From positions 18,512-82,511 of IMG/VR virus record IMGVR_UViG_3300025312_000002: a stretch of DNA of 64,000 nt; one strand, given 5' to 3'. Below are positions 44,527 to 58,909 of the stretch, in pieces. Origin of the DNA: a virus. The notes under the pieces are model-generated. The model was given only the letters and a program-made list of their open reading frames with translations. It did no database searches and had not been told where the DNA came from. The position numbers were made by a program, and so were the translations under genes. Within the stretch, counting starts at the first letter, position 1. Every line of letters begins with the position of its first letter.

Positions 44527-45750
44527 ATGCCGACAGGTAAAAGTGATATTCCTGATCTAAGACTTGAGCGACTTCAGGGACTAATAACCGCGTTCACGAC
44601 TTCTCCCAATTTGGTTTTGATGAATATGTTTTCTGAAGAAGATGCAGATTCAGATACAATTAAGTGGGAAAGTCAGGTAGGGAATAGAGGGATGACACCA
44701 TTTGCTGCTCCTGGTGCTCCTTCTCAAACTGTTGCTCCTATAGGGGTGAAACAGGAATCAGCTATGACAGCTTACTGGAAAGAGAAGATGTACTTTGATG
44801 AAGTGTTCCTGAATAACCTTCGCAAAGAGGGAACTGTTGATCAGTATTTTTCTTCTCAGGCTCGTCTTGCAAGAGAGACTTTGATGTTGCGGAATCGTTG
44901 TGATCGTCGTAAAGAGTGGATGTTTGCTCAAATGCTTTCAGGCGGAACAATGACTTATTCCGCTCCCGGCGGAGTAAAAATCTCCCTTGATTATAGTGTT
45001 CCTTCTGCAAATCTTGTGACTCTTGCTGCTGCATATCAGTGGGATACGGGTTCGTCTGTGAATGTTCTTCAGGACATCATGGATGCTCAGTTAGTTCTTC
45101 AGAATTCGATAGGGGCAAAGATTGATTATGCTTTGTGTACGACTGAAGTTCTACAGATGTTGATTATGGATAAGGGAATTCAGACCTTGCTCTCAAAATC
45201 TACTTTCGGTCAGGGGGATTTGTTTACCCGTCCGGTGGCAGTTCTTGGTTCTTTGCTGAATATTCCTAATCTAATGATCTATGATGAGCAGTATGTAATT
45301 TCTGCGTGGTTGACTGCAAAAGTTACAGGAGCTTCTACCACGTCTGTAAGTGTAGATGATGCTACGGACTTTGTTGTAGGGGAAACTTTGAGATTTCATG
45401 ACATTTCAGCAGGCACATATGAAGATGAAACGATTGCTTCTATAGATGTTGAGGCTGGAACGGTTACTGTGTCGTCTGCTCCTACAGCGTCTTTCAAATC
45501 AGGGGAAGATAAGGTCACTATGACTCGCAAATTCCTTGATAAAACAAAGTTTTGTATGTTTGCTTCTGCGGTTGAAGGACAGAAAATAGCTAAGTTTATT
45601 CGGGCTCCTTTTGGTCTTAATCGTTTAAGGGGAATGCAAATTGATACTGAGACTACTTGGGATCCAGATGGCATTTGGCTGCGTGTTCAGAATAAGGGTT
45701 TGCCGGTTCTGCTTAATAGGGATGCAATCTATGTTCTGACGGTAACTTAA
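44527..45750 (+). CDS. major capsid protein (lambda gpE-like HK97 fold) with inserted beta domain
   Basis: RRKEWMFAQML..G, W..DPDG....V....LP motifs. Confidence 0.88.
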   Translation: MPTGKSDIPDLRLERLQGLITAFTTSPNLVLMNMFSEEDADSDTIKWESQVGNRGMTPFAAPGAPSQTVAPIGVKQESAMTAYWKEKMYFDEVFLNNLRKEGTVDQYFSSQARLARETLMLRNRCDRRKEWMFAQMLSGGTMTYSAPGGVKISLDYSVPSANLVTLAAAYQWDTGSSVNVLQDIMDAQLVLQNSIGAKIDYALCTTEVLQMLIMDKGIQTLLSKSTFGQGDLFTRPVAVLGSLLNIPNLMIYDEQYVISAWLTAKVTGASTTSVSVDDATDFVVGETLRFHDISAGTYEDETIASIDVEAGTVTVSSAPTASFKSGEDKVTMTRKFLDKTKFCMFASAVEGQKIAKFIRAPFGLNRLRGMQIDTETTWDPDGIWLRVQNKGLPVLLNRDAIYVLTVT

Positions 45751-45767
45751 TAGAAGGAGGTAGATAA

Positions 45768-46259
45768 ATGGCAAGAAAAGGTTATCAAGGGCCACTTCCT
45801 TCTTCTGATTTTAGAAAACAGGTGGCAACGGAAGTTTTAACTCCTTTTACTGATATAATTTCAGGTGAGTTTGCTGCTTCTGTTAGCAGACCTCTTGGAA
45901 TTGCTCGATTTAAGGGCAGAGTTACAAATGTAATTCTTTCTGTTGCTAAAGACGGATCGTCTGCTTCTGTTGCTGATACTCCTAGATTTTCTGGAGAAGT
46001 GACTATTAATAAGGTTTCAATTTTCACAACGAAGCCATCTATTGGTCATGTTTCAGGGGAGTCTGCTACAATAGGTCAAAAGACTACGTGGGCAGAAGCA
46101 GGGGATACAGGGATAATTCAACCTGTTATAAATCAGGCAACTGCTTCATTTGTTATCGGGGATGTTTTAGATTGGACAGCTATCTATTCAGGCAGCGGAA
46201 GTCCTACTGAAAAGATTCAGAGTCCCGGTATTGTTGTTGAAGTAGAGCCTGATATTTAA
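45768..46259 (+). CDS. probable minor capsid/decoration protein
   Basis: Beta-rich, follows MCP. Confidence 0.5.
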   Translation: MARKGYQGPLPSSDFRKQVATEVLTPFTDIISGEFAASVSRPLGIARFKGRVTNVILSVAKDGSSASVADTPRFSGEVTINKVSIFTTKPSIGHVSGESATIGQKTTWAEAGDTGIIQPVINQATASFVIGDVLDWTAIYSGSGSPTEKIQSPGIVVEVEPDI

Positions 46260-46278
46260 AGAAGGAGGGCAATCAGAA

Positions 46279-46542: not shown

Positions 46543-46543
46543 G

Positions 46544-46999
46544 ATGACTTCTTCTGATGCTGTTATATTGATTAAGAGAGAGTTAAAAGCTCTTTCTTCC
46601 AATTTTGTTGAGGATGATTATACTGATGCAATTTCAAATGCTCAAAGGGAATTGAGCCCGTTTATTTTCCCTACATCTGACGACTTTCAAATCCTATGGC
46701 TGATTAAGCGAACTAAGCGGGCTTTATTTTTTGCTCTTCTAGCAGAAAATCTTTTGTCTTTTAAATTCAAGCAACTTTCATTACAAGACAAGTTTAAAAA
46801 TCTTCAATCCATTGTTCAGGCAATGGATGATGAGTTTAGACAGGCAATGGATGATGATCCTTATAAATTTGCAAATGTATCAGCATATCAAATGTTTTCG
46901 CATGTAGTAGGAGCAGGATTTGCTTATGATGCTTTAGGAAGAGATGTTTCTTCTTGTTCTGAGATTTTAGTAAGTGTACATCCAAATGAAGAGGATTAA
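46544..46999 (+). CDS. probable head-tail adaptor
   Basis: Helical, synteny. Confidence 0.55.
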   Translation: MTSSDAVILIKRELKALSSNFVEDDYTDAISNAQRELSPFIFPTSDDFQILWLIKRTKRALFFALLAENLLSFKFKQLSLQDKFKNLQSIVQAMDDEFRQAMDDDPYKFANVSAYQMFSHVVGAGFAYDALGRDVSSCSEILVSVHPNEED

Positions 47000-47004
47000 T
47001 AAAA

Positions 47005-47634
47005 GTGTCTGTTGGAGCCGATGTAAAAAAAGCCTTAGAAGATGTTGGGGTTTCTTTTATCACAAGGAGAGACACAGGCAATTTCTCGGGGGAATTTTTA
47101 ATCTATGATATTCCAAAAGCTTCTTCAGGAATTGGAAATCCATCAGCTTTTGCAAAAGAGACAATACTTGAAGGGGCATTGTCGTATGATACAATAGTTG
47201 TAGAAGGGGATGTTCTTGAACTTAGCAATAGTAAAAGGGTTCTTGTTGCTTCAAAAATTCCTGATATGTTTCAGGATTCTATTGTTATTTACGAAACACA
47301 ATTTCTTAAAGCAAATATTGTTAGTGGTGAGATTTTACGATCATCAGGTGAAGTTTGGGAAGATCAGACGTATCATAAAGTTCAAATATGGGAATCTATT
47401 AAAGCCGGAATTAATAGTGTGTTGGTTGAGGTATCCGGCAATCAATTATCAGACCGAGATGAGCTTGGCCTGCTGACAGTATCGAGAATAGAGATGTACA
47501 TAGCGAGCGGAGAGAACATAAAATTGTTAGATAGGTTCCAAGCACGTTCTGGAGAATATTATCAAGTTGACGTGATTAAGAAAAGCATCTATCCTGCAAT
47601 TAGTGTTATTGAGATGAGCCAAGATACAAGATAA
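47005..47634 (+). CDS. probable head closure protein
   Basis: Duplicated beta-barrel pattern (..GD.L..; D.F..YYQV), synteny. Confidence 0.5.
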   Translation: MSVGADVKKALEDVGVSFITRRDTGNFSGEFLIYDIPKASSGIGNPSAFAKETILEGALSYDTIVVEGDVLELSNSKRVLVASKIPDMFQDSIVIYETQFLKANIVSGEILRSSGEVWEDQTYHKVQIWESIKAGINSVLVEVSGNQLSDRDELGLLTVSRIEMYIASGENIKLLDRFQARSGEYYQVDVIKKSIYPAISVIEMSQDTR

Positions 47635-47671
47635 AATGTTTTAAATACAATTGAATAGGAGAAAACAATCT

Positions 47672-49729
47672 ATGAAGAAACTTTTATTGGTGGGGGATCA
47701 TCCTTATGGCCATTCAGGAAATTCCCATATGATTAACGCTTGTTTACAACAAATTGATTTAACTAAGTATGATATAACAGTTTTTGCTGCTTTTCCCGTT
47801 TCGTGTCCTGTTTCTTCTGAAGTTAGAATCATTGAAGGAGGGAATAATCCTTATGATGATTTTGGTGCTTCACAGCTTGTTTCTTTTTTGAATCAAAATA
47901 AATTTGATGTTGTTTGTTTTATCGGATTAGATATTTGGACCTATTCTAAAGTCTATCCTCAGTTACTTGAACTAAAAAGAAGAGATAAATTTATTTGGGC
48001 TTCAATTTTTCCTTATGATGCACATTTTGTTAGACAGGATTGGCTATCTCTTTTTAATCCAATTGATATTCCGTGTGTATATTCAGCATATGGCTATGAG
48101 ATGTTAGTAGAGAGTGTTCCAAATCTTTATTATTTTAGACCCCCTCTTTTTGATGCAAAAAAATTTAAATTGTTTTCTGATGCAAAAAAGAAAGAAACAA
48201 GAGAAAAATTATTTCATGAACATGTGAATGAGGACACTTTGCTTTTTGGTTTTTTTGGTCACAATCAATTTAGGAAAGACCCTCTTCGAGTAATAAAAGC
48301 ATTTTTTGAAGTTAAAAAGGAAATTCCTAATTCAGCTTTATATTTGCACACTGAACTTGCTAGTCAAAGAGGAATTTTTAATATAGAACAGTACATAAGG
48401 GATTGTGGAGGAAAACTAGGAGATGTGCTCGTTAAAAAACAGGGGCACTACTATTCTACGGAAACTCTTATTGAAGTCTATAATGCTGTTGATTGTGTTG
48501 TGAATGTTTCTTTGCAGGAAGGTTTGAGTTGGACGGTCCTTGAATCTATGCTTTGTGGAACACCTGTAATTGCTTCAAATAATACAGCACACATAGAATT
48601 AATTGAAGAAGGGGCCGGAATAGGTGTTGCATCTACAGAATTAGCTTATATTCCTCTCTTAGCAGCAAATGGAGCTTCTACATTCATTGAAAGCAAAGCT
48701 TGTTCTTTTCCTGATCTTGTAAGAGCAATGAAATCAGTACAAGATGTTACTCTTAGAAAAGATTTAAAATATCGAGGGATACGAAGAGCAACTGAGTGGT
48801 TACAAAGAGTTTCAGATATAACGAACCTTCTTGATAAAGCATGTAATTATGTGTCTCCTGTACGCAAGGAGAAGGCACGGAAGGAGGCTATTCTTTTTGC
48901 TCAACACTCTTCAGCAGGGGATGTGATTATGACTACCCGTTGCTTTAAAGACCTTAAAAAAAGAAATCCTGACATTCCTTTTTATTACATGACACAAAAG
49001 AAGTATCAGGACATTATTGTAGGCAATCCTTATATTGATGAGATATTTGATTGGGATGAAGCAAAACTACAGGAATACAAGTTTGTTTATAATCCTCACG
49101 GAGAGAGAATACTTCCTGGACACTGGGGAAGAAACAGCAATTCAATCCTTGCTGATTTCTATTGGAAAGTATTAATGATTGATGAGCCTGATGATTTCTT
49201 TATTGATTTGAAAGTTCCTGAGAATCCAATTGCTGATGAAATTTTAGACACAAAGCTCCCTATTTGTATTCTCCACACAACTGGCGGGGATGCTGAGTTC
49301 CGCACCTACGAATATATGGGAGATGTTGCTGAAGGTTTGAGAGACAGATATTTTACTATTCAAGTGGGAGGGAAAGATGATTTTCCTGCAAAAGCTGATC
49401 TTGATTTGAGAGGTAAATTATCTTTTAGAGAAAGTGCTTGGGTAGTCTCGAAAGCTGCTATTGCTGTAACAGTTGATTCTTTTATATCACATCTTTGTGG
49501 GGCATTAGGAGTATCACAAGTATGCTTATTTGGAAGTGGAAATGCATCAGTTGTAAAACCTTTGCAGGTTAAGGGAAAACTCATTGAGATGTCTCCAGAC
49601 TATATAAAAAATTGTATGGGTTTGGGGCCTTGCAGTGCAGGAGTAAGGGAGTGTCCAATAAAGTGCACTGGGTCACACAACCCAAACACAATTTTAGAGA
49701 ATATTAAGAAGTTGGAGGAAACAATCTAA
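47672..49729 (+). CDS. two-domain glycosyltransferase (GT4-like + GT9 heptosyltransferase-like)
   Basis: NQFRKD, EGLSWTVLESM.CGTPVI; SAGDVIMTT, NPYIDE, DLRGKLS, VDS..SHL. Confidence 0.9.
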   Translation: MKKLLLVGDHPYGHSGNSHMINACLQQIDLTKYDITVFAAFPVSCPVSSEVRIIEGGNNPYDDFGASQLVSFLNQNKFDVVCFIGLDIWTYSKVYPQLLELKRRDKFIWASIFPYDAHFVRQDWLSLFNPIDIPCVYSAYGYEMLVESVPNLYYFRPPLFDAKKFKLFSDAKKKETREKLFHEHVNEDTLLFGFFGHNQFRKDPLRVIKAFFEVKKEIPNSALYLHTELASQRGIFNIEQYIRDCGGKLGDVLVKKQGHYYSTETLIEVYNAVDCVVNVSLQEGLSWTVLESMLCGTPVIASNNTAHIELIEEGAGIGVASTELAYIPLLAANGASTFIESKACSFPDLVRAMKSVQDVTLRKDLKYRGIRRATEWLQRVSDITNLLDKACNYVSPVRKEKARKEAILFAQHSSAGDVIMTTRCFKDLKKRNPDIPFYYMTQKKYQDIIVGNPYIDEIFDWDEAKLQEYKFVYNPHGERILPGHWGRNSNSILADFYWKVLMIDEPDDFFIDLKVPENPIADEILDTKLPICILHTTGGDAEFRTYEYMGDVAEGLRDRYFTIQVGGKDDFPAKADLDLRGKLSFRESAWVVSKAAIAVTVDSFISHLCGALGVSQVCLFGSGNASVVKPLQVKGKLIEMSPDYIKNCMGLGPCSAGVRECPIKCTGSHNPNTILENIKKLEETI

Positions 49730-50415
49730 TGAGAAAATTAACAGTGTGCTCAAACATTTTTAATGAGATTAAACAACTCCCCAAGTGGTTTAATTGGGTA
49801 AAAAAAGTAGCTGACGGAGGAATTATAATTGTTGATTCTGGTAGTACAGATGGATCAGTAGAGTATGCAACAGATCAGGGAGCTTTAGTTGTCGTGAGTA
49901 AAATTATCCAGACTGAAGGATATGGGCCTGCAAGAACTCAGTTGAGAGAACTTACGAAAGAATTTCATCCAGATAGCAAATGGATGGTTTACTTCGATGC
50001 GGATGAAACTATAGATGAAAAAGAATTTCATCAATTAAGATGGATAAAGGACTCTTTAATTGATGCTTATGATGTTGTTGCATTTCCTAGAATTGATTGG
50101 CATGATTTTGAGAAGACAAAAGCAGAGAATGATTTTCGCAATGCTCCTGATTGGCAGGCTAGAATGACAAGAATAGAAAGTCCAATTAAGTATGTGCGAA
50201 AACTTCATGAACAAATAACAGGACACAAAAACATTTATTGTAATTTAACTACTCCTAAGCTCAATCATTACCACAGAGCAGTAAAAGATAAGAGAGACAC
50301 AATTGGAAAACTGTGTGCAAAGCTCCATTATGAGGATGTTGCTTTAGGAGCAACTTATCCAAAACATCACAAAGAAGATTATTACTATGAACAGTATTTA
50401 CGGGAAGGTTTATGA
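49729..50415 (+). CDS. GT2-family glycosyltransferase
   Basis: NE, IVDSGSTDGS, FDADE, PDWQ.R, LHE. Confidence 0.88.
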   Translation: MRKLTVCSNIFNEIKQLPKWFNWVKKVADGGIIIVDSGSTDGSVEYATDQGALVVVSKIIQTEGYGPARTQLRELTKEFHPDSKWMVYFDADETIDEKEFHQLRWIKDSLIDAYDVVAFPRIDWHDFEKTKAENDFRNAPDWQARMTRIESPIKYVRKLHEQITGHKNIYCNLTTPKLNHYHRAVKDKRDTIGKLCAKLHYEDVALGATYPKHHKEDYYYEQYLREGL

Positions 50416-51143
50416 ACTTAACAGTCTTTGCAAACTCAACTTTATACACTCCAATGCCTGATGAGGATATTACTCTAGGCAAAGGAAGCACTTTAGATTA
50501 TTTGCAAGAAAAGTATCCTTTTCTTATTGAGGGAAATTGGATAAACGGATTAACTGTTATGAACGTAAAAAATATTTTGCAGAACTATCTTAAAGAACGA
50601 CATAGAAAGAACTGGGTGATTCTAAATGTAGGGGCTGTTGAGTGTTATTCACATCCAGCAAAGAATTTCATTTACTGGTGTTGCCAATATCTTAATTTCT
50701 ATGGGTTAGATTCTTTGTTTACAGCATATGTTCTTCCGAAGATGCTGTTAGCTGCAAAGGATTTGAATGAACAAAATAATCAATATTTTCAAACTCTTAC
50801 AGCAGAACAATTTGGAGAAATCTTCGCATCTGTTTTACCTATGCTTGAGGGATTCTCAGTTATTGTTATTGGGTTAAGTAAACCGAATGTAGAAAGTAAA
50901 AGAATTCATTCTCATTGGAGAATTCAAGCTGAAGAGTACAAGAATGTAATTGAGTGTTTTGCAAAGCAATATAACAACATCACTTACATTGATTGTTGGA
51001 ATAAATATGATCAATATGTTGTTGATACAACTCATTTAACGCCTGAAGGTCATTTTATACTATTTCAAGAAATACAATCTGTTATAGAAGCTGAAAGGGG
51101 AAAGTATGAACAAAGAGGCAGAATTTACTTCAATGGGAAATAA
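50412..51143 (+). CDS. SGNH/GDSL-like hydrolase or O-acyltransferase
   Basis: FANS block I, LNVGAVE, D.THL..EGH. Confidence 0.65.
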   Translation: MNLTVFANSTLYTPMPDEDITLGKGSTLDYLQEKYPFLIEGNWINGLTVMNVKNILQNYLKERHRKNWVILNVGAVECYSHPAKNFIYWCCQYLNFYGLDSLFTAYVLPKMLLAAKDLNEQNNQYFQTLTAEQFGEIFASVLPMLEGFSVIVIGLSKPNVESKRIHSHWRIQAEEYKNVIECFAKQYNNITYIDCWNKYDQYVVDTTHLTPEGHFILFQEIQSVIEAERGKYEQRGRIYFNGK

Positions 51144-52047
51144 GCTTATACATCATCCCAATATTGTTGAGTTACTTCAACATAATAGAGTTTCTCCTAT
51201 TTCCATTCAAATAGCACCTACTTCAAGATGTCAGTTGAATTGTTGTTTTTGCTCTAATACAAACAGAGACAAACAAGAAGAGTTGGAGTATATAAAACTT
51301 ATAGATTTTCTTGCTGATATGAAGTCTTTAGGAGCAAAAACAGTTGAGTGGACAGGAGGAGGTGATCCTTCTTTATATTCCAACATAAATCAAGTAATAA
51401 TTGCATCAGGAATAGCAGGATTTGAACAGGGCTTTATTACTAATGGTTTAGGCTTTGATAAGATAGAGAAAAATGCACTTAATTTCCTGAAGTGGATTCG
51501 CATTTCGATGAATTGTTTAGATTATGTTGAGGAAGTAGAAATCCCTGAACTGCCTAAAGACACAACACTTGGTTTTAGCTATGTTATTAATGCTAAATCT
51601 ACTTTAAAAAGTATGCTCAAATTGAAAACTCATGTTAAAAAATATTCCCCTGCCTATGTGCGTGTTGTCCCTGATTGCCAAACAACTGAGGAGCAGCAAC
51701 AGAAAAATAATAAACTATATGTAAGATGGGTTGAAAAGTGGGGGGAACCTTTTTTTTACCAAGCAAAGATATTTGAGAAACCAAAATTATGTTATTGGGG
51801 AATGGTAAAACCCTTCCTTCTTCACGATGAGTTTGTTTACAGATGTTCCTCTGTTGTGTTGAATAATGATGCTGAAAGAAGTTTTCATGAAAAATATAGA
51901 TGGTGTAAGATGGAAGAGTTAAAAGATGAATATAAAACAGAGATTGTTCCTTTTAAAACAAACAACTGTGAACATTGTGTTTTTACAAAACAAAATGATT
52001 TAGTGCATGAAATTATAAATCCTTCAGCAATGAAGAATTTTATTTAA
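51106..52047 (+). CDS. radical SAM protein
   Basis: CQLNCCFC, WTGGGDP, ITNG, C-terminal Cys cluster. Confidence 0.88.
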   Translation: MNKEAEFTSMGNKLIHHPNIVELLQHNRVSPISIQIAPTSRCQLNCCFCSNTNRDKQEELEYIKLIDFLADMKSLGAKTVEWTGGGDPSLYSNINQVIIASGIAGFEQGFITNGLGFDKIEKNALNFLKWIRISMNCLDYVEEVEIPELPKDTTLGFSYVINAKSTLKSMLKLKTHVKKYSPAYVRVVPDCQTTEEQQQKNNKLYVRWVEKWGEPFFYQAKIFEKPKLCYWGMVKPFLLHDEFVYRCSSVVLNNDAERSFHEKYRWCKMEELKDEYKTEIVPFKTNNCEHCVFTKQNDLVHEIINPSAMKNFI

Positions 52048-52054
52048 GGAGGAA

Positions 52055-52858
52055 ATGATAATGTTTATAATGCCTAAAGAATGGTTGCTGAAATATTATG
52101 GAAGCAAAGAAAATCAAATTCAGCAAACAAAAGAATGGCTTTTACAATACGGGCATAATGTGACTGTTCGACAAATTGAGGAATGGAAAAACTATAAACA
52201 CCTTGCAGAATATCAACCCAACACCAATGATATTGTTCAACAATGTGTTGATAAGGTGATAGGCTGTTTTGAGTTTGAAACTGAACTTCAAGCACATAGG
52301 TTTGTAAATATGCTTAGAGTTCCCCTTTCCGCGAGTTATGAGGGGGCTTTAGACGTAGTTCAGCCTAAAATCATGCTTGAGTTAGGTGTAGGAGGAGATT
52401 CAGGAATTTCGACCTCTGTGTTCCTTGCATATATTGAGAAGAGCGGGAATTATTTACAATCAGTAGAAATAAATCCTCTTGGAATGACAGGAGTGAGATA
52501 TGAACAGTATATGAACACTATTTGGAGATTTAAATATGATGACAGTGTGACTTTTCTTAATGAGAAGGTGGCAAAGGATCAGAGATATGATATGATTTTC
52601 ATTGATACTTCTCATACCTATGAGCATACGATGTCGGAAATGAAATCAGCTTCTTTAATAACAAGTAATATGCTGATGGATGATGCTTTGTTTGAAGGAA
52701 ATGAAACAGACAAAATTCAAGGAGGGGTAAAACGAGCAATTGCTGAGTGGGTAGAAGTAAATAAGAATTGGGAAAAGATTGATTTTTGGCAAGGGAATAC
52801 AGTTTTATTGAGAAAAGAAAATGAATTGAAAGCAAAGAAAGTTAAGGCTGTAAAATGA
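52055..52858 (+). CDS. class I SAM methyltransferase (Methyltransf_24-like)
   Basis: LELGV..G.ST, FIDTSHTYE, MDD, GGVKRAI. Confidence 0.85.
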   Translation: MIMFIMPKEWLLKYYGSKENQIQQTKEWLLQYGHNVTVRQIEEWKNYKHLAEYQPNTNDIVQQCVDKVIGCFEFETELQAHRFVNMLRVPLSASYEGALDVVQPKIMLELGVGGDSGISTSVFLAYIEKSGNYLQSVEINPLGMTGVRYEQYMNTIWRFKYDDSVTFLNEKVAKDQRYDMIFIDTSHTYEHTMSEMKSASLITSNMLMDDALFEGNETDKIQGGVKRAIAEWVEVNKNWEKIDFWQGNTVLLRKENELKAKKVKAVK

Positions 52859-53526
52859 AAGACTGGCAAAAATTCGCAATTGAGAGTTTTGATAAAGAAA
52901 AGTTTTATGAGTTTCCTGCTTTCATAAGTGCTGAAGATACTGCATTTCAACGGTATCGTACTTATGAAAGATTTGTTTGGGATACTGTAGAACGATGCGG
53001 ATGTATTGCTGCTGCAACTTTAAGTATGCTATTCAAACCGAAAGTCATTGTTGAGATGGGTGTTAATGTAGGGTGGACTTCCTTACTTTTGTGCAAATTG
53101 AATCCTGAAGCAAGGATATACGGGGTTGATATTTCAGGGGTATTTCAGAACGGAGATTTTTCTTATCTTCCGACAGGGTATACTCCATTTATGCACAATT
53201 GCCAAAATTATTCTTTAACAATTGTTAATTCTTATGAGTGTGTTATGCCCAATCAAGTTGATTTATGCTTTATAGATGCTTGTCATTTTTTGCCTGAAGT
53301 TGAGTTAGATACTTGGAGAGCTTGGGAAAATAGAAACACAAAAGGGGATTGGTGTATTGCTTGGGATGACTATCATGAGAATAATCCTGATGTTTTTAAT
53401 ACAGTGAATAAATTTGTAGAGGAAGTTGGAATGCCTTTACAAAAAATAGGCAGTTGGTATTGGATAGGCACAAAAATTGTGTCTGAAGATGAACTTTCTA
53501 ACATTCAATCCGAAGGAGGAAATTGA
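52855..53526 (+). CDS. class I SAM methyltransferase (Methyltransf_24-like)
   Basis: VEMGV..G.TS, GVDI, FIDACH, WDDY. Confidence 0.85.
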   Translation: MKDWQKFAIESFDKEKFYEFPAFISAEDTAFQRYRTYERFVWDTVERCGCIAAATLSMLFKPKVIVEMGVNVGWTSLLLCKLNPEARIYGVDISGVFQNGDFSYLPTGYTPFMHNCQNYSLTIVNSYECVMPNQVDLCFIDACHFLPEVELDTWRAWENRNTKGDWCIAWDDYHENNPDVFNTVNKFVEEVGMPLQKIGSWYWIGTKIVSEDELSNIQSEGGN

Positions 53527-53527
53527 A

Positions 53528-54532
53528 ATGACAAAGGTGGCAATTGCAATCGCACATGGGCACACAGCAAAATATTTGCAGATAGCAGTTCATAGTTTAC
53601 AGACACTAGAGAATATAATTGAGCCTGATATTTATATTGCAGAAACTTGGCCTGGACATCCTTCAATAAAAGCTGTTACTGAATCTGATTTGGGTCATAA
53701 TATAACAGTAATTCCTTGTGTGAGACGAAAACATAGTCATGCTACAGCTCTTGAGGAGATATTAGAAGCAATTGAAGGCAAAGGGTATGATTTTTTATTT
53801 GCAATGGAAACGGATACACAAGCTATGAAGGTGGGATGGCTTGATTGGTATGTTAATTTTATGAAAGATGAACCAACAATAGGGCTTGCGGGTTTCTTTT
53901 GGCATGAGGGAGATCATCATTATAATATCAATCCTTCTGCTACTCTTTATCGAGTAGATATGCTTCAACAATACCATAAAGAAGCAAGGGCAAATAATGA
54001 AGGAATGTTTTGGCATCCTAGAGGAAATAAACCTGATAATACTCCTGGGATGGATAATACAATTAAAGATGTTGTGGGGTGTTTTGCTGAAACAAGAGGA
54101 ATTAAAAATCCGACAGATGTTCAGAAAGATGCTATAGTAAGAGGAGTTCCTGAAGCAGCATGGTTTGAACCTGGACAATGGTTATATTGTAGATTGCAGG
54201 GAGAATGGAAAGAAGCGAGAGTGCCTGTAGATCATATTTATATGCAGTTTCCTGGGCACACTGCTCCTGAAGGTACTTATTATGGAAGTAAAGCTGATCC
54301 TCAGTTTATCCATCGGTGGGGTGGAACCCGTGCCTACGATTGGAAAAAACATAGAGTGGATGACCATTTTGTTAAATCATGTGCTCCAATGTGGATTGCA
54401 CGAGAAGATAAACTTTGGAAAGAATTTGTTCCAGAAAGTTATAGAGGAATAGTACATGAATTGAATCAGGAAGAGGACATATTGAAACTTATGAATGATA
54501 ACTTAGGTTTTATTATTCCAGAGGCGTTATAA
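53528..54532 (+). CDS. putative GT-A fold glycosyltransferase
   Basis: HATAL, FAMETD (DxD-like), HRWGGT; cluster context. Confidence 0.55.
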   Translation: MTKVAIAIAHGHTAKYLQIAVHSLQTLENIIEPDIYIAETWPGHPSIKAVTESDLGHNITVIPCVRRKHSHATALEEILEAIEGKGYDFLFAMETDTQAMKVGWLDWYVNFMKDEPTIGLAGFFWHEGDHHYNINPSATLYRVDMLQQYHKEARANNEGMFWHPRGNKPDNTPGMDNTIKDVVGCFAETRGIKNPTDVQKDAIVRGVPEAAWFEPGQWLYCRLQGEWKEARVPVDHIYMQFPGHTAPEGTYYGSKADPQFIHRWGGTRAYDWKKHRVDDHFVKSCAPMWIAREDKLWKEFVPESYRGIVHELNQEEDILKLMNDNLGFIIPEAL

Positions 54533-55371
54533 TGAATATTCAAATCGAGTCTTCCAACTGCTGTAATTTAGCATGTAGTGAATGCCCACAACATTTAATG
54601 AAACGCAAGAGACAAGTAATGTCAAAAGAAGTTTTTGATGTTGTCCTTGATAAATACATTGCTCCTTTAAAGAATGAAGAAGATAGATTAGGCTATCCTC
54701 CGACTGTCATATGGCACAAAGACGGGGAGCCGCTAACTAATTGTAATTTAAAGGATTTTATGATTAAGGTTGCAATGAGAAAGCCTGAATTCAGATTTAA
54801 TCTATATACAAACGGGTTATTACTGACAGAGGACTTCCTTGATTTTTTGAATAGACTTCCTAATCTAACTTGGCTTTTCATTTCTTATCATTTTTTTAAT
54901 TTTAATGGAGAAAGAAATGATTATTCAAAACTTGATGAATTGATTATCAAGGCATTGAATAGTAGAGAAAAGAAGTATGAGCACATCAAGTTTGTTTTTA
55001 CTTCTCATGTCACAAGATTTATCACAAAAGATGATTTGAATATGTGGGGAACAATTTGGAAAACAAAAGTTCCTGAAGACAGGTTAACAATTGGAATCAA
55101 CGATTGTATTAACCCTTGGACAGGTTTAATTGATGAACCTAACTGTGTCAAGTTTGATGGGTGTCCTTATGCTGATTTTGGTCATTTGTTTATAGGTGTG
55201 ACAGGCAATGTACTCCCGTGTTGTATGTGCCTTGAAGAAGATATTATATTTGGGAATATTATGACTGATGTTCCTGAAGATATTTATTCAAAAGCAAATG
55301 ATTTTTATACTCGTTTAAGAGAAAAGGATTTGCCCCATGATCTTTGTAAGAATTGTTTAGGAGTGAAATAA
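54532..55371 (+). CDS. radical SAM/SPASM protein
   Basis: CNLACSEC, DGEP, YTNG, GNVLPCC, LCKNC. Confidence 0.88.
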   Translation: MNIQIESSNCCNLACSECPQHLMKRKRQVMSKEVFDVVLDKYIAPLKNEEDRLGYPPTVIWHKDGEPLTNCNLKDFMIKVAMRKPEFRFNLYTNGLLLTEDFLDFLNRLPNLTWLFISYHFFNFNGERNDYSKLDELIIKALNSREKKYEHIKFVFTSHVTRFITKDDLNMWGTIWKTKVPEDRLTIGINDCINPWTGLIDEPNCVKFDGCPYADFGHLFIGVTGNVLPCCMCLEEDIIFGNIMTDVPEDIYSKANDFYTRLREKDLPHDLCKNCLGVK

Positions 55372-55988
55372 TGAACTCAAGTTTTTATGATCGTGAATAT
55401 TATGAAGAAGGTTTGGAGTCGGGTAAGAGTGCTTATCAGCAATATCGCTGGGTGCCTGAGCTTACAATTCCTCTTGCAATGACTTTGATTGATTATCTTC
55501 AGATTAAAAAGGAACAAACAATTTTAGATTTTGGCTGTTCAAAAGGATACTTAGTTAAAGCATTACGAATTTTGCGTAGAGAGGCATGGGGAATTGATAT
55601 TTCAGACTATGCGTTAAAGTGTGTGCCTGAAGATGTTAAAGCTTTCTGCCGCCCTCCTAGTTTATTGGAAACTTCTTCTTTTGATTTCTGTATAGCAAAG
55701 GATGTTTTTGAACACATTCCTTTGAGGGATTTAGCAGAGGTTTTACAGAAGTTACACACAAGCACTTTGTTTGCTGTTATTCCTTTAGGAGAAAATGGGA
55801 AGTATAATGCAGAAGTAAACAACCTTGATAAATCCCATTTGATTTGTGAAAGTGCAGCATTTTGGGGGACATTTTTTTCTACAGTAGGATGGCAAGTGAT
55901 AAATTTTTCATATCATGTAGATGGAATTAAAGAAAGTTATATTCATATTCCTAAAGCTCATGGGTTCTTCACATTGGAGAAAAGATAA
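55371..55988 (+). CDS. class I SAM methyltransferase
   Basis: ILDFGCSKG, GIDIS, DVFEHI. Confidence 0.88.
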   Translation: MNSSFYDREYYEEGLESGKSAYQQYRWVPELTIPLAMTLIDYLQIKKEQTILDFGCSKGYLVKALRILRREAWGIDISDYALKCVPEDVKAFCRPPSLLETSSFDFCIAKDVFEHIPLRDLAEVLQKLHTSTLFAVIPLGENGKYNAEVNNLDKSHLICESAAFWGTFFSTVGWQVINFSYHVDGIKESYIHIPKAHGFFTLEKR

Positions 55989-56356
55989 TGCTGACTGTGT
56001 TTATTATTCCTTTAGCTGATAGTAGGACTGAAAAAACAATAGAATCATTTGTTGGAATTGAGTGTGATGTGAAAGTATTGGAAGATAGAAATTTTAATGA
56101 AGTAGCAAAAACTAAATGGAAAATGTTTATGTTTAACAATGAAGTTCTTACTGAGGAATTAAATGTAGCAATCCCAATCTTTCTTAAAGAAGGGACAGCA
56201 GATATTTATAAGATTTATAAACAGAAAGGGAAGGAAATAACAATTGCACCAAGGCTGTTTAAATCAGAAATTGAATTAAAAAAAGATTGTCTTCTTCCTG
56301 TTAAAGGAATTGAGAAATATAAAATTGAAACAATACTAAATGGGTTTATAAATTGA
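55988..56356 (+). CDS. degenerate GT2-like small protein
   Basis: LTVFII..KTIES, AKTKW.MF..NE, PRLF resemble a reduced GT-A domain. Confidence 0.4.
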   Translation: MLTVFIIPLADSRTEKTIESFVGIECDVKVLEDRNFNEVAKTKWKMFMFNNEVLTEELNVAIPIFLKEGTADIYKIYKQKGKEITIAPRLFKSEIELKKDCLLPVKGIEKYKIETILNGFIN

Positions 56357-56383
56357 AGTGTATTTTCTCTAACGGAATAAAGT

Positions 56384-56959
56384 ATGATAGAAATAGATGC
56401 TCAGTACGATAAAAAAGAACTTCAAAACATACTTGACAAGATCAAGGCTGTTGATAAGGAAGTTCGGTATCAAATTGCAGGCCCAGGTGAATTACCAAGA
56501 CAGTTATCAATCAAATATGCTGAGGAAGTAAGAATTTCTCTTACAAGACAAGAATTTGTGGGAAAATATAAAGCATATAATGCTAAATATGCAGAATGGA
56601 AAGCAGAGCACGGAAAAGGAGGGGGTTTTTGGCAGTTGATGGGAGATTTGCTTATGAGTATAAGAGGGGGATTTAGAGTAGCAGACGGTTTTTATGGGGG
56701 CATTCCTTTTGGATCAAGGGATTCAGGAGGAAAGAATTGGACAGGAAGTGGGCCTTCTAAGAGTATAGTTATGTACACTAATGTGATGGAAGAAGGCATT
56801 CCTAAAAGCATAAGAGGTTCAGGGGTTCATTCTAAGCGTCCATTATTTGAACCTTCTTTTAGGAAATTTGTTTTTTCTGCTTCAAGAGGGAATTCAGGAC
56901 TTGCTTGGAGGCTTGCTGATAATGCTATGATGAAAATTGCAGACGGGTGGACAAAATGA
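56384..56959 (+). CDS. HK97 gp10-like neck/tail completion protein
   Basis: Y..VMEEG, RPLFEP motif, synteny. Confidence 0.6.
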   Translation: MIEIDAQYDKKELQNILDKIKAVDKEVRYQIAGPGELPRQLSIKYAEEVRISLTRQEFVGKYKAYNAKYAEWKAEHGKGGGFWQLMGDLLMSIRGGFRVADGFYGGIPFGSRDSGGKNWTGSGPSKSIVMYTNVMEEGIPKSIRGSGVHSKRPLFEPSFRKFVFSASRGNSGLAWRLADNAMMKIADGWTK

Positions 56960-57161
56960 AAATTTTAGAGGTACAGGCAAGATCAGTAGTTGTGATTTTT
57001 GAAGAAACTATTGAAGGGCTTGAGAAAATTAAATCTGCACTTGATTGTGCCGTATTGAAATCTTCAACAGATGAAGAGAAAGAAGCCATATCTTACTTGA
57101 CTATGGTTGTGTATCCTTTTATACTACAGACGTTAGAAGGCATTAAAGGAAAGGAAGAAAA

Positions 57162-58000: not shown

Positions 58001-58009
58001 GGAATTGTT

Positions 58010-58315: not shown

Positions 58316-58909
58316 ATGCCAAGAAGCGGGCCCATTACGAAAGATGTTTCAACAGTTGCATTAGGATTAGCACAAGTAAGAATAGGTGCTTCTGCTGCTA
58401 ATGTGACAAGTCTAGCTCCTGTATTGACTTCTACATCGTCAATCGGAGCTCTTGCTAACACAAAATTCACATCTGCTGTTGAATTTTGGAGGTTAGAATC
58501 AGGCTTCCCTCTTGTAGAGGATACTTCAATTCCTCTTAGGGAGAAAGCCCAACTTGAGTGTGCATTTAAAGAAATAACCCCGATGAATGTAGCCTTTGCA
58601 AAAGGCATTGATGCTACATCAGGGTACACAACTGTACACTCAGGCGAAATTCCTTTGGGGAATATTGATTCTCCTGATTTTATCAGAATGGAGGCTTTTT
58701 ATACTTATCCTGATGGAGTTAATGAGATGGTTATTATCTTCCCAAGAGCGCAAGTTGTGTCCAATGTTGACATTGACTTGAAAGATAGTGATGCTGTTGC
58801 TGTTCCTATCACTATTGAAGCAAAAAATGCTGATTCAAATGTTTCAGGTGGAAGTTCTATTTGGGATTCTAAGCCTTTAGGCAGAATTTTATTTAGACCC
58901 AAACCCTAA
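58316..58909 (+). CDS. tail tube (major tail) protein
   Basis: Position before chaperone and tape measure; strong SD; siphovirus tube-like beta pattern. Confidence 0.75.
   Translation: MPRSGPITKDVSTVALGLAQVRIGASAANVTSLAPVLTSTSSIGALANTKFTSAVEFWRLESGFPLVEDTSIPLREKAQLECAFKEITPMNVAFAKGIDATSGYTTVHSGEIPLGNIDSPDFIRMEAFYTYPDGVNEMVIIFPRAQVVSNVDIDLKDSDAVAVPITIEAKNADSNVSGGSSIWDSKPLGRILFRPKP

What the first reader, a model, noticed from the sequence alone, without database searches (positions are those of the whole stretch)
47651..56356. Ten-gene glycan-tailoring block inserted inside the head-tail morphogenesis operon
Seen: between head closure and neck genes lie a GT4+GT9 fusion, a GT2, an SGNH-like protein, two radical SAM proteins, three methyltransferases, a further GT-A-like gene and a degenerate GT. 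All are co-oriented and most overlap stop/start codons. Knowledge: some actinobacteriophages glycosylate capsid and tail proteins with GTs encoded among virion genes. Inference: late-expressed synthesis of an elaborate methylated/acylated, radical-SAM-modified virion glycan, more complex than GT-only systems. Alternatively it remodels the host surface.
Basis: partly seen in the sequence, partly recalled or inferred. Interest (0 to 1): 0.75.

Follow-up and report, generated by a model that had tools for sequence, protein, structure and literature searches.

The report
Swappable glycan-tailoring island in phage virion genes
An uncultured soil and groundwater phage carries ten sugar-building and sugar-tailoring enzyme genes between its head and tail genes; related phages hold very different enzyme sets at the same spot, so the phage probably coats its own particle with a variable sugar layer, though no sugar has been measured.

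Summary
Window 47651-56356 has ten co-oriented, tightly coupled ORFs between the major head gene (44527) and the major tail gene (58316) of a complete 82.5-kb phage. They are:
- a GT4+GT9 fusion
- a GT2
- an SGNH-fold protein
- two radical SAM proteins, one BtrN-like with a SPASM domain
- three SAM methyltransferases
- a 351-aa protein of unassigned fold
- a 122-aa mini GT-A fold

New here: the block is one allele of a hypervariable island at a fixed site.
- **Site:** in 89 of 99 related loci that carry the fusion, it starts within 250 nt of the same head-side gene.
- **Frame:** 27 complete islands span about 3 to 11 kb. The fusion opens them, a GT2 follows in 24 of 27, and the mini GT-A usually closes them.
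- **Cargo:** relatives carry GT8, GT4, sugar aminotransferase, NDP-sugar dehydratase, carbamoyl- and pyruvyl-transferases and B12 radical SAM enzymes.
- **Exchange:** the window-type island, fusion included, has moved between capsid lineages (AU p 7e-12).

The enzymes are soluble. The genome has no integrase and no thymidylate-synthase or C5-methylase route.

Virion glycosylation is the best reading (about 0.55), but the acceptor is inferred only. A 163-aa head-side protein found only in island-bearing phages is a candidate.

This scan has often noted other GT/methyltransferase cassettes in virion modules of other phages, with different enzymes. I rate this a new variant of a known kind.

The parts
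44527..45750 (+). Major head protein; upstream landmark and possible acceptor
   Evidence: phrog_29, E 2.3e-34. 73 IMG/VR relatives at 42-69% identity. Only one column (T220) is Ser/Thr in 77% of island-bearing rows against 17% and 0% in the two island-free clades.
45768..46259 (+). h163: 163-aa Ser/Thr-rich (21%) head-side protein of unknown fold; candidate acceptor or glycan-dependent decoration protein
   Evidence: The family was found by jackhmmer in 65 of 84 island-bearing loci and 0 of 29 island-free loci. In the set fetched by MCP alone: 14 of 22 against 0 of 29. There are only 3 independent contrasts on the MCP tree (p 0.25). No PDB, Pfam or PHROG assignment.
47005..47634 (+). h209: conserved head-side gene that marks the 5' border of the island site
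   Evidence: A homologue lies within 250 nt upstream of the fusion gene in 89 of 99 loci. In island-free relatives it is followed by the n191 homologue. No family hit.
47651..49729 (+). B1: fusion of two GT-B glycosyltransferases, GT4 (about residues 9-402) and GT9-like (about 410-692). It is the first gene of every island examined. The true start is probably ATG 47672.
   Evidence: Pfam. AF2 model pLDDT 89.7. Best PDB match for the N half is 3oy2_A, a chlorovirus NY-2A putative GT: Z 36.6, rmsd 3.1, 368 aligned. A profile of the C half hits 3tov 1.3e-10, WaaF 6.6e-8 and WaaC 1.8e-7. E290 is invariant and E298 is kept in at least 90% of 31 homologues, spaced as in E-x7-E (motif name recalled). 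Four invariant C-terminal Cys: 655, 661, 668, 672. 313 full-length fused homologues, all metagenomic.
49729..50415 (+). B2: GT2 (GT-A) glycosyltransferase; second core gene
   Evidence: Pfam Glyco_tranf_2_4 and Glycos_transf_2, both above cut-off. The family is present in 24 of 27 complete islands. D90 is invariant; D92 and E93 are nearly so.
50412..51143 (+). B3: SGNH-fold protein, a putative glycan O-acyl esterase or transferase
   Evidence: No Pfam hit. Atlas structural match TM 0.77 to a Lipase_GDSL_2 cluster. Ser, G-x-V-E and D-x-x-H are kept in the 5 distinct sequences aligned, window included. tblastn hits in 5 of 148 loci.
51106..52047 (+). B4: radical SAM enzyme of a distinct ~315-aa family with a second Cys cluster; substrate unknown
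   Evidence: Pfam Radical_SAM 31.4 bits. C42, C46 and C49 plus C229, C247, C288 and C291 are invariant in 41 homologues. 81 representative clusters at E<=1e-30. The PDB profile gives only generic radical SAM cores. Hits in 23 of 148 loci.
52055..52858 (+). B5: Methyltransf_24 / CmcI-like methyltransferase (sugar O-methyltransferase type)
   Evidence: Pfam 33.4 bits vs 26.3. Hits in 3 of 148 loci.
52855..53526 (+). B6: second CmcI / Methyltransf_24-like methyltransferase
   Evidence: RMNT_CmcI 23.7 vs 23.2; Methyltransf_24 25.2 vs 26.3. Hits in 2 of 148 loci.
53477..54532 (+). B7: 334-351-aa protein of unassigned fold, possibly GT-A-like; probable start ATG 53528
   Evidence: 80 homologues, none with Pfam and all metagenomic. 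Atlas neighbours carry GT2 in 11-20% of members. Nothing in PDB by profile.
54532..55371 (+). B8: small radical SAM enzyme with a SPASM/twitch-type auxiliary domain; BtrN-like
   Evidence: Pfam Radical_SAM plus SPASM. Best PDB sequence match is BtrN 4m7s, E 6.2e-11, over residues 3-111 and 220-278. The next match is 5wgg at 0.0025.
55353..55988 (+). B9: class I SAM methyltransferase; probable start ATG 55371
   Evidence: Pfam Methyltransf_23, 34.5 bits. phrog_27380, 1.1e-30. Hits in 11 of 148 loci.
55988..56356 (+). B10: 122-aa mini GT-A fold without a conserved DxD; last gene of most islands
   Evidence: AF2 pLDDT 95.6. Foldseek: SunS 5.1e-4, TarP, STIV A197 1e-3, TarS, SpsA. E52, R89, F91, L117 and G119 are invariant. 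It ends within 250 nt of n191 in 22 of 24 loci. hhalign against GT2 gives probability 10%.
56384..56959 (+). n191: conserved gene that marks the 3' border of the island site
   Evidence: tblastn hits in 42 of 148 loci. It follows h209 in island-free relatives. No family hit.
58316..58909 (+). Major tail protein; downstream landmark
   Evidence: phrog_476, 8.2e-5. 52-68% identical in relatives.

Best explanation
The block is a late-operon, cytoplasmic glycan synthesis and tailoring island that decorates a protein of the phage's own particle.

Proposed course (inferred):
1. The GT4+GT9 fusion (B1) primes and extends a glycan on a virion protein, using host nucleotide sugars. The acceptor is most likely a head-surface protein such as h163 or the capsid protein.
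2. GT2 (B2) elongates the glycan, and B7 and B10 may do so too.
3. Two CmcI-type methyltransferases and one class I methyltransferase methylate it.
4. The SGNH protein adds or trims an acyl group.
5. The BtrN-like radical SAM enzyme (B8) oxidises a sugar hydroxyl, and B4 performs a further radical step.

Shown here:
- the enzyme families
- the fixed position of the island in the virion module
- the sugar-pathway nature of the islands in relatives
- exchange of whole islands between capsid lineages

The acceptor, the order of steps and the chemistry are inferred. The diversity resembles that of a serotype locus, which suggests selection on what the particle surface displays.
For: 1. **Fixed site in the virion module.**
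   - B1 starts within 250 nt of the h209 homologue in 89 of 99 B1-bearing loci.
   - B10 ends within 250 nt of n191 in 22 of 24 loci.
   - Island-free relatives join h209 to n191.

2. **No room for separate transcription.** Gaps are at most 27 nt. Promoter-like sites number 55 against 56.1 in shuffles. All terminator-like hits fall inside ORFs.

3. **Sugar chemistry in relatives.** Pfam census of 150 cargo ORFs from 27 islands:
   - Radical_SAM 24
   - GT2 22
   - Methyltransf_11 18, _23 17, _24 13
   - B12-binding 12
   - GT1 10
   - GT8 6
   - PS_pyruv_trans 4
   - DegT 3
   - GDP_Man_Dehyd 3
   - Two carbamoyltransferases were seen separately.

4. **Soluble enzymes.** The block proteins have no clear membrane helix; the one hydrophobic 19-mer lies in the SGNH core of ORF3. 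Only 2 of 200 cargo ORFs have even one strongly hydrophobic 19-mer.

5. **Not a temperate phage.** The genome is rated 100% complete and has no Phage_integrase or Resolvase hit; both controls rang.

6. **No known acceptor route for DNA glycans.** No Thymidylat_synt and no C5 DNA_methylase; both controls rang.

7. **Closest structure for the B1 N half.** It is a chlorovirus GT (3oy2, Z 36.6, next 32.6). Chloroviruses glycosylate their capsid protein with soluble virus-encoded GTs and methyltransferases (passages of PMC9614988).

8. **B8 resembles a sugar enzyme.** It matches BtrN, an aminocyclitol-oxidising radical SAM enzyme, better than any peptide maturase in PDB.

9. **h163 tracks the island.** It occurs only in island-bearing phages: 65 of 84 against 0 of 29.

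10. **Precedent.** Cluster O mycobacteriophages have three GTs and an O-methyltransferase that modify capsid and tail tube (passage of PMC11600133, which cites Freeman 2023).
Against: - There is no direct evidence for a glycan on any protein.
- No RNA run is listed, so expression timing is unknown.
- The h163 association rests on 3 independent contrasts (p 0.25). 19 of 84 island-bearing loci lack h163, so it cannot be the sole acceptor.
- The capsid protein shows almost no island-linked Ser/Thr signal: one column.
- GT4 and GT9 are the families that build the LPS core, and those enzymes are also soluble. Solubility therefore does not exclude a lipid-linked host acceptor.
- The acceptor of the chlorovirus protein 3oy2 is itself unknown (PMC9614988 passage).
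- In chloroviruses the GT genes are expressed early (same paper), so gene position is not a rule for this function.
- The functions of B4, B7 and B10 are unassigned.
Confidence: 0.55

Rival explanations
1. Remodelling of the host envelope. The enzymes act at the cytoplasmic face on a host lipid-linked glycan (LPS core, O-antigen or capsule precursor) or on a host surface glycoprotein. The effect would be to change the surface of the infected cell, for instance to stop progeny or competitors from adsorbing to it.
For: - B1 joins the two families that build the LPS core. Its GT9 half matches WaaF and WaaC, and WaaG structures are among the matches of its GT4 half.
- Methylated, pyruvylated and carbamoylated sugars, and this kind of locus diversity, are typical of surface polysaccharides (established knowledge).
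- The two MAG bins that hold related phage contigs are from Gram-negative groups, which is weak evidence.
Against: - None of the 27 islands has a polytopic membrane protein: 2 of 200 cargo ORFs have a single hydrophobic stretch. So none has a flippase, a polymerase or a Gtr-type protein.
- There is no integrase or resolvase, so no lysogenic conversion.
- The island sits inside the head-tail operon with no spacing for control of its own.
- h163, a head-side protein, tracks the island.
Confidence: 0.2
2. DNA hypermodification. The transferases add and tailor sugars on a modified base of the phage genome, as in T-even phages and the 5hmC-glycan clusters, or on the 7-deazaguanine made by this phage's separate DpdA module.
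For: - Phage GTs related to LPS and teichoic-acid enzymes glycosylate DNA, and some such clusters lie near structural genes (abstract and passages of preprint 10.1101/2023.12.21.572611).
- B10's fold matches include TarP, which that paper reports as the top PDB match of its GT-A DNA transferases.
- An earlier unchecked note (e1-6115143) says this genome has a deazaguanine module with its own GT-B and radical SAM gene.
Against: - The genome has no thymidylate-synthase-family gene and no C5 DNA methylase. Those mark the hydroxymethyl-pyrimidine route used in the known clusters. The Tet_JBP search is uninformative because its control was silent.
- The block lies about 28 kb from the DNA-metabolism genes, on the other strand block, inside the morphogenesis operon.
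- The deazaguanine module already has its own transferase.
Confidence: 0.07
3. Modification of a peptide or small molecule. The two radical SAM enzymes with auxiliary clusters act as RiPP-type maturases on a virion protein or a small peptide, which is then glycosylated and methylated. Alternatively, the island makes a free methylated oligosaccharide.
For: - NCBIfam and PDB matches of B4 and B8 include peptide maturases such as PqqE, SuiB, SkfB, YydG and CteB.
- B10's best fold match is SunS, a peptide S-glycosyltransferase.
- B1 weakly matches TIGR04157, a GT family linked to radical SAM peptide systems (8e-7).
Against: - All NCBIfam scores lie far below their cut-offs, for example 37.1 against 381.
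- The matches cover mainly the generic radical SAM core.
- B8 is nearest to BtrN, a carbohydrate-type enzyme.
- Relatives replace B4 and B8 with B12 radical SAM enzymes and NDP-sugar enzymes.
- I did not look for a precursor peptide.
Confidence: 0.08

Closest known systems
Virion O-glycosylation of mycobacteriophages (clusters O, F1 and others; Freeman et al. 2023, Cell Host Microbe). I saw it only through citing passages in PMC11600133 and PMC12619734; the paper itself is not held.
   Same: - Glycosyltransferase genes sit together with an O-methyltransferase in a siphovirus genome.
- The enzymes are reported to modify capsid and tail tube subunits.
- The enzymes here are soluble, with no export machinery.
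   Different: - The host group and phage lineage differ: the major head protein has only one weak match in 50,697 deposited phage records.
- The priming enzyme here is a GT4+GT9 fusion.
- The island is larger (10 genes, and up to about 11 kb in relatives). It adds radical SAM enzymes and an SGNH protein; in relatives it adds sugar aminotransferase, dehydratase, carbamoyl- and pyruvyl-transferases.
- The island is hypervariable and exchanged between backbones.
- Glycans and acceptor sites are unproven here.
Chlorovirus (PBCV-1, NY-2A) capsid glycosylation by virus-encoded enzymes: A064R with two GT domains and a methyltransferase domain, A061L, A111/114R, and B736L (PDB 3OY2). Source: passages of PMC9614988.
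   Same: - The virus encodes soluble, cytoplasmic GTs and sugar O-methyltransferases that build its own capsid glycan.
- The proteins are multidomain transferases.
- The N half of B1 has B736L as its best structural match (Z 36.6).
   Different: - That is a eukaryotic giant virus with N-linked glycans.
- Its genes are dispersed and expressed early.
- No radical SAM enzymes are reported in the passages I read.
- The acceptor of B736L is unknown.
- Sequence identity to B1 is only 16-18%.
LPS inner- and outer-core glycosyltransferases (WaaC and WaaF of GT9; WaaG of GT4)
   Same: The families and folds of the two halves of B1 are the same.
   Different: Those are separate cellular enzymes that act on lipid A-Kdo. 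Here the two are fused, encoded by a phage, placed in a morphogenesis operon, and have four invariant C-terminal cysteines.
BtrN, the radical SAM 2-deoxy-scyllo-inosamine dehydrogenase of butirosin biosynthesis (PDB 4M7S/4M7T). Its function is recalled; the match is.
   Same: - The size is similar (279 against about 250-270 aa).
- Both have a CX3CX2C core plus a C-terminal auxiliary-cluster domain.
- The two align over both parts (E 6.2e-11).
   Different: The similarity is low and the substrate here is unknown. The context is a phage glycan island, not an aminoglycoside cluster.
Phage DNA glycan hypermodification clusters (preprint 10.1101/2023.12.21.572611; abstract and passages)
   Same: Phage-encoded GT-A and GT-B enzymes are recruited from cell-envelope pathways, and some lie near structural genes.
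   Different: Those clusters are defined by an adjacent C5-methyltransferase with 5mYOX, or by a ThyS-type enzyme. Both Pfam families tested for these are absent from this complete genome.

Membership tests
Phage-encoded virion glycosylation system (mycobacteriophage type) | Glycosyltransferase genes lie within or next to the virion structural genes | tested here: met
   The block lies between the major head gene (44527) and the major tail gene (58316), on one strand, with gaps of at most 27 nt. The site is conserved in 89 of 99 loci.
Phage-encoded virion glycosylation system (mycobacteriophage type) | Glycan covalently attached to capsid and/or tail tube subunits | not testable with these tools
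   This needs glycostain or mass spectrometry of particles. The phage is uncultured, and the listed runs that hold it are on record as soil, sediment and groundwater metagenomes (four of them laid).
Phage-encoded virion glycosylation system (mycobacteriophage type) | An identifiable acceptor segment on a virion protein that tracks the enzymes | tested here: inconclusive
   h163 occurs in 65 of 84 island-bearing loci and 0 of 29 island-free loci, but with only 3 independent contrasts (p 0.25). The capsid protein shows a single discriminating Ser/Thr column.
GT4 (retaining GT-B), N half of B1 | GT-B fold, family HMM above cut-off, and two Glu spaced as in the E-x7-E motif (motif name recalled) | tested here: met
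   PF13692 47.5 bits vs 27 and PF00534 40.6 vs 26.4. Z 36.6 to 3oy2 and 32.5 to MshA. In 31 homologues E290 is invariant and E298 is at least 90% conserved.
GT9 (heptosyltransferase family), C half of B1 | Family HMM above cut-off and similarity to WaaC and WaaF | tested here: met
   PF01075 29.4 bits vs 22. Profile against PDB: 3tov 1.3e-10, WaaF 6.6e-8, WaaC 1.8e-7. All NCBIfam heptosyltransferase equivalogs score far below cut-off (38.4 vs 170), so it is not an orthologue of any named one.
GT9 (heptosyltransferase family), C half of B1 | Uses ADP-heptose as donor | not testable with these tools
   This needs an enzyme assay.
SGNH/GDSL hydrolase (B3) | Family HMM match | tested here: not met
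   No Pfam or NCBIfam hit at E<=0.01.
SGNH/GDSL hydrolase (B3) | SGNH fold with Ser nucleophile and Asp-x-x-His | tested here: met
   Atlas model TM 0.77 to a Lipase_GDSL_2 cluster. Ser near the N-terminus and D-x-x-H are kept in the 5 distinct sequences aligned, window included. The Gly-x-Asn-Asp block reads G-x-V-E.
Radical SAM / SPASM-twitch enzymes (B4, B8) | CX3CX2C motif, family HMM above cut-off, and additional Cys for an auxiliary cluster | tested here: met
   - PF04055 31.4 and 31.3 bits vs 29.5.
- B8: SPASM 38.2 vs 21.5.
- B4 family: C42, C46 and C49 plus four more invariant Cys.
- B8 aligns with both parts of BtrN.
RiPP maturase system | Equivalog-level match to a peptide maturase, with an adjacent precursor peptide | tested here: not met
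   The best NCBIfam scores are 37-41 bits against cut-offs of 250-650. I did not search for a precursor peptide.
Gtr-type or lysogenic-conversion O-antigen modification | Membrane flippase, bactoprenol GT and serotype-specific membrane GT, on a temperate phage | tested here: not met
   No clear membrane helix in the block; one hydrophobic 19-mer in the SGNH core of ORF3. 2 of 200 cargo ORFs have one hydrophobic stretch. No integrase or resolvase in the complete genome.
Phage DNA glycosylation cluster (5hmC/5hmU type) | A hydroxymethyl-pyrimidine-forming enzyme (ThyS-family, or C5-MT plus 5mYOX) in the genome | tested here: not met
   PF00303 and PF00145 are absent and their controls rang. PF12851 is absent, but its control was silent, so that part is inconclusive.

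The most novel reading that the evidence does not exclude
Phage particles of this widespread uncultured lineage carry a serotype-like glycan coat.
- **Cassette structure.** The coat is encoded by a swappable cassette framed by a GT4+GT9 primer enzyme and a mini GT-A protein.
- **Exchange.** Whole cassettes move between capsid backbones. Homing endonucleases seen inside some islands may help. The result is O-antigen-like surface diversity on virions.
- **Chemistry.** The diversity would include radical-SAM-made sugars (keto or C-methylated) not yet known on any virus particle.
- **Selection.** This implies strong diversifying selection on the virion surface in soil and groundwater. Possible agents are glycan-reading host defences, grazers, or adhesion to matrices.
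Probability: 0.35. Interest if true: 0.75.

Novelty: new variant of a known kind. Interest (0 to 1): 0.6.

Why it matters
Virion glycosylation is experimentally established in phages only for actinobacteriophages, as far as the passages I read show. There it changes antibody recognition of the particle.

If this reading is right, three things follow:
- The trait extends to a large environmental siphovirus lineage, probably of Gram-negative hosts.
- The chemistry is much richer: three methyltransferases, an acyl enzyme and two radical SAM enzymes here, with amino, carbamoyl and pyruvyl decorations in relatives.
- The locus behaves like a bacterial serotype locus, with a fixed site, conserved frame genes, variable cargo and lateral replacement.

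That would make phage surface glycans a variable trait under selection. It would bear on adsorption, environmental persistence, recognition by hosts or predators, and phage engineering. It also offers a defined pair (B1 plus h163 or the capsid protein) for a simple co-expression test, and new radical SAM and mini GT-A families to characterise.

Tried and rejected
- **BAHT lead.** From memory, the GT9 half with its four invariant C-terminal cysteines recalled the autotransporter protein heptosyltransferases (TibC/AAH). A profile of that half found only 3tov, WaaF and WaaC in PDB at E<=10. No such chain was among the listed Foldseek rows. The lead is unsupported, though not excluded.
- **B10 as a truncated GT2 paralogue.** hhalign against the island GT2 profile gave probability 10%. 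Only the fold search supports a GT-A relation.
- **B7.** phmmer and profile searches of PDB found nothing, and hhalign against GT2 gave 0.2%.
- **h163.** No hit in Pfam, PHROGs (31 members scanned) or PDB by profile.
- **Close relatives among deposited phages.** megablast of 14.4 kb found nothing. tblastn of the head protein found one weak hit, Cylindrospermopsis phage Cr-LKS3, at 25.8% over 51%.
- **First scan with B1 alone.** It found no locus. The same scan with an alignment found 175 relatives, of which 80 were kept.
- **Host.** A genome-contig scan gave two MAG contigs, binned as an Alphaproteobacteria bacterium and a Melioribacter roseus MAG. Both are phage contigs of this lineage, and binning is weak evidence. 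No tRNA.
- **Expression.** No RNA holder is listed among 23 runs, so there is no evidence either way.
- **Laid contigs.** Contigs of runs X14-X17 laid on 44527-58909 show cover in all 30 bins, with 33 of 47 (X14) to 39 of 40 (X17) laid contigs at least 99% alike, and no joint that skips the block. One odd X14 joint (51771 to 45241) was not followed.
- **Signals.** The promoter and terminator scan shows no signal above shuffles in intergenic space.
- **Capsid Ser/Thr covariation.** One column only.
- **Tet_JBP.** The control genomes were silent, so the result is uninformative.
- **Papers.**
  - Freeman et al. 2023 is not held and is known here only from citing passages.
  - Supplements were not opened. 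Table S1 of the Pyle preprint and any supplements of Freeman might list GT families that bear on the comparison.
  - Three full-text searches found no description of this lineage or of a GT4+GT9 fusion in a virion module: (listings only). In one search, 2 papers held all five terms. One was read in passages; the other, on Pasteurella, was seen in the listing only.
- **Earlier scan notes by sequence.** No relevant hit.

Full report
**Setting**

The window is the last 64 kb of a single 82,511-bp contig whose first 30 bases recur 99 bases before its end. The genome service rates it a virus record with direct terminal repeats, 100% complete.

From about 36 kb onward all long ORFs are on the + strand. 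By PHROGs the order is:

| Gene | Start | Match |
|---|---|---|
| Large terminase | 38271 | |
| 546-aa protein | 40613 | weak lambda-portal match |
| Head maturation protease | 42644 | |
| Major head protein | 44527 | E 2.3e-34 |
| Four unassigned genes (here h163, h87, h151, h209) | | |
| The ten-gene block | 47651 | |
| Five unassigned genes (n191, n72, n109, n170, n96) | | |
| Major tail protein | 58316 | E 8.2e-5 |
| Two small genes | | |
| Tape measure | 59731 | |

The position between head and tail genes is real.

**The ten genes**

- a GT4 plus GT9 fusion (B1)
- a GT2 (B2)
- two radical SAM proteins (B4, and B8 with a SPASM domain)
- three methyltransferases (B5 and B6 of the Methyltransf_24/CmcI kind; B9 class I)

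The other three genes have no family hit.
- **B3** has an SGNH fold by the Atlas's own model (TM 0.77). The Ser, G-x-V-E and Asp-x-x-His positions are kept in the 5 distinct sequences aligned, window included.
- **B10** folds with pLDDT 95.6 into a small alpha/beta domain. All its listed PDB matches but one (IspDF, rank 48) are GT-A glycosyltransferases: SunS, TarP, STIV A197, TarS, SpsA. The E-values are borderline, 5e-4 to 1.6e-2. The DxD position is not conserved; only Glu52 is invariant. 'Degenerate or minimal GT-A' is therefore a fair description.
- **B7** stays unassigned. Its Atlas neighbours carry GT2 in only 11-20% of members, and profile searches found nothing.

Seven of the nine internal junctions overlap, and the flanking gaps are 16 and 27 nt. 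The block's G+C is 0.346 against 0.357 for the window.

**Closer look at key enzymes**

*B1.*
- It models at pLDDT 89.7.
- Its N half (residues 9-402) is closest to PDB 3oy2, a putative GT of chlorovirus NY-2A. The match is Z 36.6, rmsd 3.1 Å over 368 residues, and the next entry scores 32.6.
- A profile of its C half matches a Veillonella GT9 protein, WaaF and WaaC.
- In 31 homologues E290 is invariant and E298 is at least 90% conserved. They are spaced as in the E-x7-E motif of retaining GT4 enzymes (motif name recalled). Four C-terminal cysteines are also invariant.

*B8.*
- It aligns with BtrN over both the radical SAM core and the auxiliary-cluster domain (E 6.2e-11).
- The best peptide maturase scores 0.0025.

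*B4.*
- It belongs to a broad family of about 315 aa: 81 representative clusters at E<=1e-30.
- The family has seven invariant cysteines.
- Only generic radical SAM relatives appear in PDB.

**Relatives**

Nothing similar exists among 50,697 deposited phage records. IMG/VR, however, holds many relatives: 73 loci were found with the head protein. With a B1 alignment, 175 stretches encode a relative and the best 80 loci were kept. B1 has 313 full-length fused homologues in the large protein collection, all on metagenomic contigs of at most 92.6 kb.

tblastn of the window's proteins on all 148 loci shows two states.
- **Island-free.** h209 is followed by n191 and the tail genes.
- **Island-bearing.** In 99 loci, B1 begins within 250 nt of h209 in 89 of them. 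Four have 1.3-1.7 kb in between, and six have no detectable h209.

In the set fetched by the head protein alone, 22 of 51 judgeable loci carry B1.

**What the islands hold**

Of 33 loci with both borders, 27 remained after I dropped four with identical B1 DNA and two near-copies (L072, L122). From the start of B1 to the first downstream anchor, the islands span about 3.1 to 11.1 kb. The anchors differ, so sizes are approximate. The window's island is 8.7 kb.

Conserved frame:
- A GT2 of the B2 family follows B1 in 24 of 27.
- B10 ends within 250 nt of n191 in 22 of 24 loci that have both.

Cargo between the frame genes differs widely. A Pfam scan covered the 150 longest of the 185 cargo ORFs of at least 100 aa. 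It returned 44 families, of which 25 were shown. Counts of ORFs matching each:
- Radical_SAM 24
- Glycos_transf_2 22
- Methyltransf_11 18
- Methyltransf_23 17
- Methyltransf_24 13
- B12-binding 12
- Glycos_transf_1 10
- Glyco_transf_8 6
- SPASM 4
- PS_pyruv_trans 4
- DegT aminotransferase 3
- GDP_Man_Dehyd 3

Single scans added carbamoyltransferase, RMNT_CmcI, and HNH and GIY-YIG endonucleases.

By content the islands fall into three groups:

| Type | Defining content | Number |
|---|---|---|
| A (window type) | B4 radical SAM, usually with B9 and often B8 | 7 loci plus the window |
| B | B12-binding radical SAM | 12 loci |
| N | no radical SAM | 8 loci |

B4 and the B12 enzyme never occur together. 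Loci L086 and L101 carry nearly the window's full set, so the window's block is not unique.

**Exchange**

- On a head-protein tree of 25 rows, island type needs 12 changes, which equals the shuffled mean of 12.0. Rows dropped: L084, L111 and L135, which lack a full head gene in the locus.
- On a B1 tree of 26 rows, all 7 type-A rows form one clade with SH-aLRT 100. Rows dropped: L101 and L053, which have a stop inside the matched stretch.
- The head-protein alignment rejects a tree that holds the type-A rows together (lnL lower by 586.7, AU p 7.4e-12). The group had been defined from gene content, before the tree was made.
- So the type-A island, its B1 allele included, has moved between capsid backbones.
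- B1 is also far more diverged than the head protein (median end branch 0.53 against 0.21).

These are quick trees with SH-aLRT support only.

On a larger head-protein tree (90 distinct rows, 65 of them with B1), the presence of B1 needs at least 3 changes. Two island-free clades are nested among island-bearing rows.

**What is the target?**

*For a cytoplasmic, phage-directed target:*
- The block proteins have no clear membrane helix. One hydrophobic 19-mer lies in the SGNH core of B3. Only 2 of 200 cargo ORFs have a single strongly hydrophobic stretch.
- The complete genome lacks integrase and resolvase, which argues against lysogenic conversion.
- It lacks thymidylate-synthase-family and C5-methylase genes. 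These mark the known DNA-glycan clusters (preprint passages).
- h163, a 21% Ser/Thr protein encoded right after the head gene, was found in 65 of 84 island-bearing loci and 0 of 29 island-free loci. The loci were not deduplicated, and many had been fetched by B1. In the set fetched by the head protein the figures are 14 of 22 against 0 of 29.

*Against, or limiting:*
- Only three independent contrasts support the h163 link (p 0.25).
- 19 island-bearing loci lack h163.
- The head protein shows one discriminating Ser/Thr column.
- No RNA data exist.
- GT4 and GT9 enzymes of the LPS core are soluble too, so a lipid-linked host acceptor stays possible.

**Comparison with known systems**

- **Closest experimentally known system.** This is virion glycosylation of mycobacteriophages. 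I saw it only through citing passages: three GTs and an O-methyltransferase that modify capsid and tail tube in cluster O (PMC11600133), and glycans at the C-termini of capsid and tail tube (PMC12619734).
- **Closest in logic.** This is chlorovirus capsid glycosylation, with soluble virus-encoded GTs and methyltransferases, including the three-domain A064R. The same review notes that the acceptor of B736L (3OY2) is unknown and that those genes are expressed early (PMC9614988 passages).
- **Earlier scan notes.** They show many GT/methyltransferase cassettes in virion modules of other phages, with other enzymes: 837 notes hold the search words, and eight were listed. The general kind is therefore not rare.

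Distinctive here are the GT4+GT9 primer, the mini GT-A end gene, the frequency of radical SAM enzymes, and the serotype-locus behaviour.

**Verdict**

- It is a new variant of a known kind.
- Interest is 0.6.

Noticed in passing
L052:15518-16405 and L056:13285-14172: In two island-free relatives the major tail protein match is split into two in-frame-looking pieces, separated by about 310-345 bp (query residues 1-99 and 100/112-193). This could be an inserted domain, an intron or an intein in the tail tube gene.
   Followed up: no
window 58010-58300: n96 is a 96-aa protein with five cysteines in paired C-x-x-C-like spacing, lying between n170 and the major tail gene. It has matches in 47 of 148 loci. 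It looks like a zinc-ribbon protein in a tail module, and no family was found.
   Followed up: no
L016:5821-6399, L136:12024-12875, L086:12030-12710: Homing-endonuclease-type genes sit inside or at the edge of islands in relatives, directly after B1: HNH_3 at 2.7e-14, and weak GIY-YIG/NUMOD3 matches. They may take part in island exchange.
   Followed up: partly
window 49613-49666 (B1 residues 655-672): Four cysteines at the C-terminal end of the GT9-like half are invariant in 31 and 33 homologues. This may be a metal site that is not a listed feature of WaaC or WaaF. A recalled likeness to autotransporter heptosyltransferases was not supported.
   Followed up: partly
L149 (MNUG01000004.1) and L150 (DYLN01000029.1): Two contigs filed in bacterial MAGs (an Alphaproteobacteria bacterium and a Melioribacter roseus MAG) are phage contigs of this lineage with the same gene order. 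L149 has a type-A island. They are probably binning carry-over and at best a weak host hint.
   Followed up: partly
window 57162-57491: n109 has a weak Ig-like (Big_1) match (3.4e-4, below cut-off) and 19% Ser/Thr. Unlike its neighbours, it has a match in only 1 of 148 loci. It is a variable surface-domain gene next to the island.
   Followed up: no
window 11349-19452: An earlier, unchecked note of this scan reports a 7-deazaguanine/DpdA module with its own GT-B and radical SAM/SPASM genes on the other strand. That would be a second transferase plus radical SAM pair in the same genome, and it bears on the DNA-modification rival.
   Followed up: no
L010:5537-6514; L081, L096 and L117 upstream of B1: In four loci, 1.3-1.7 kb of other genes lie between h209 and B1. 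One is a 325-aa ORF with no Pfam hit. The left border of the island is therefore not absolutely fixed.
   Followed up: no
window 51771 and 45241, run X14: One contig of a groundwater run joins 51771 back to 45241, with 26 other letters between. This may be an assembly chimera or a rearranged relative (table 5c).
   Followed up: no
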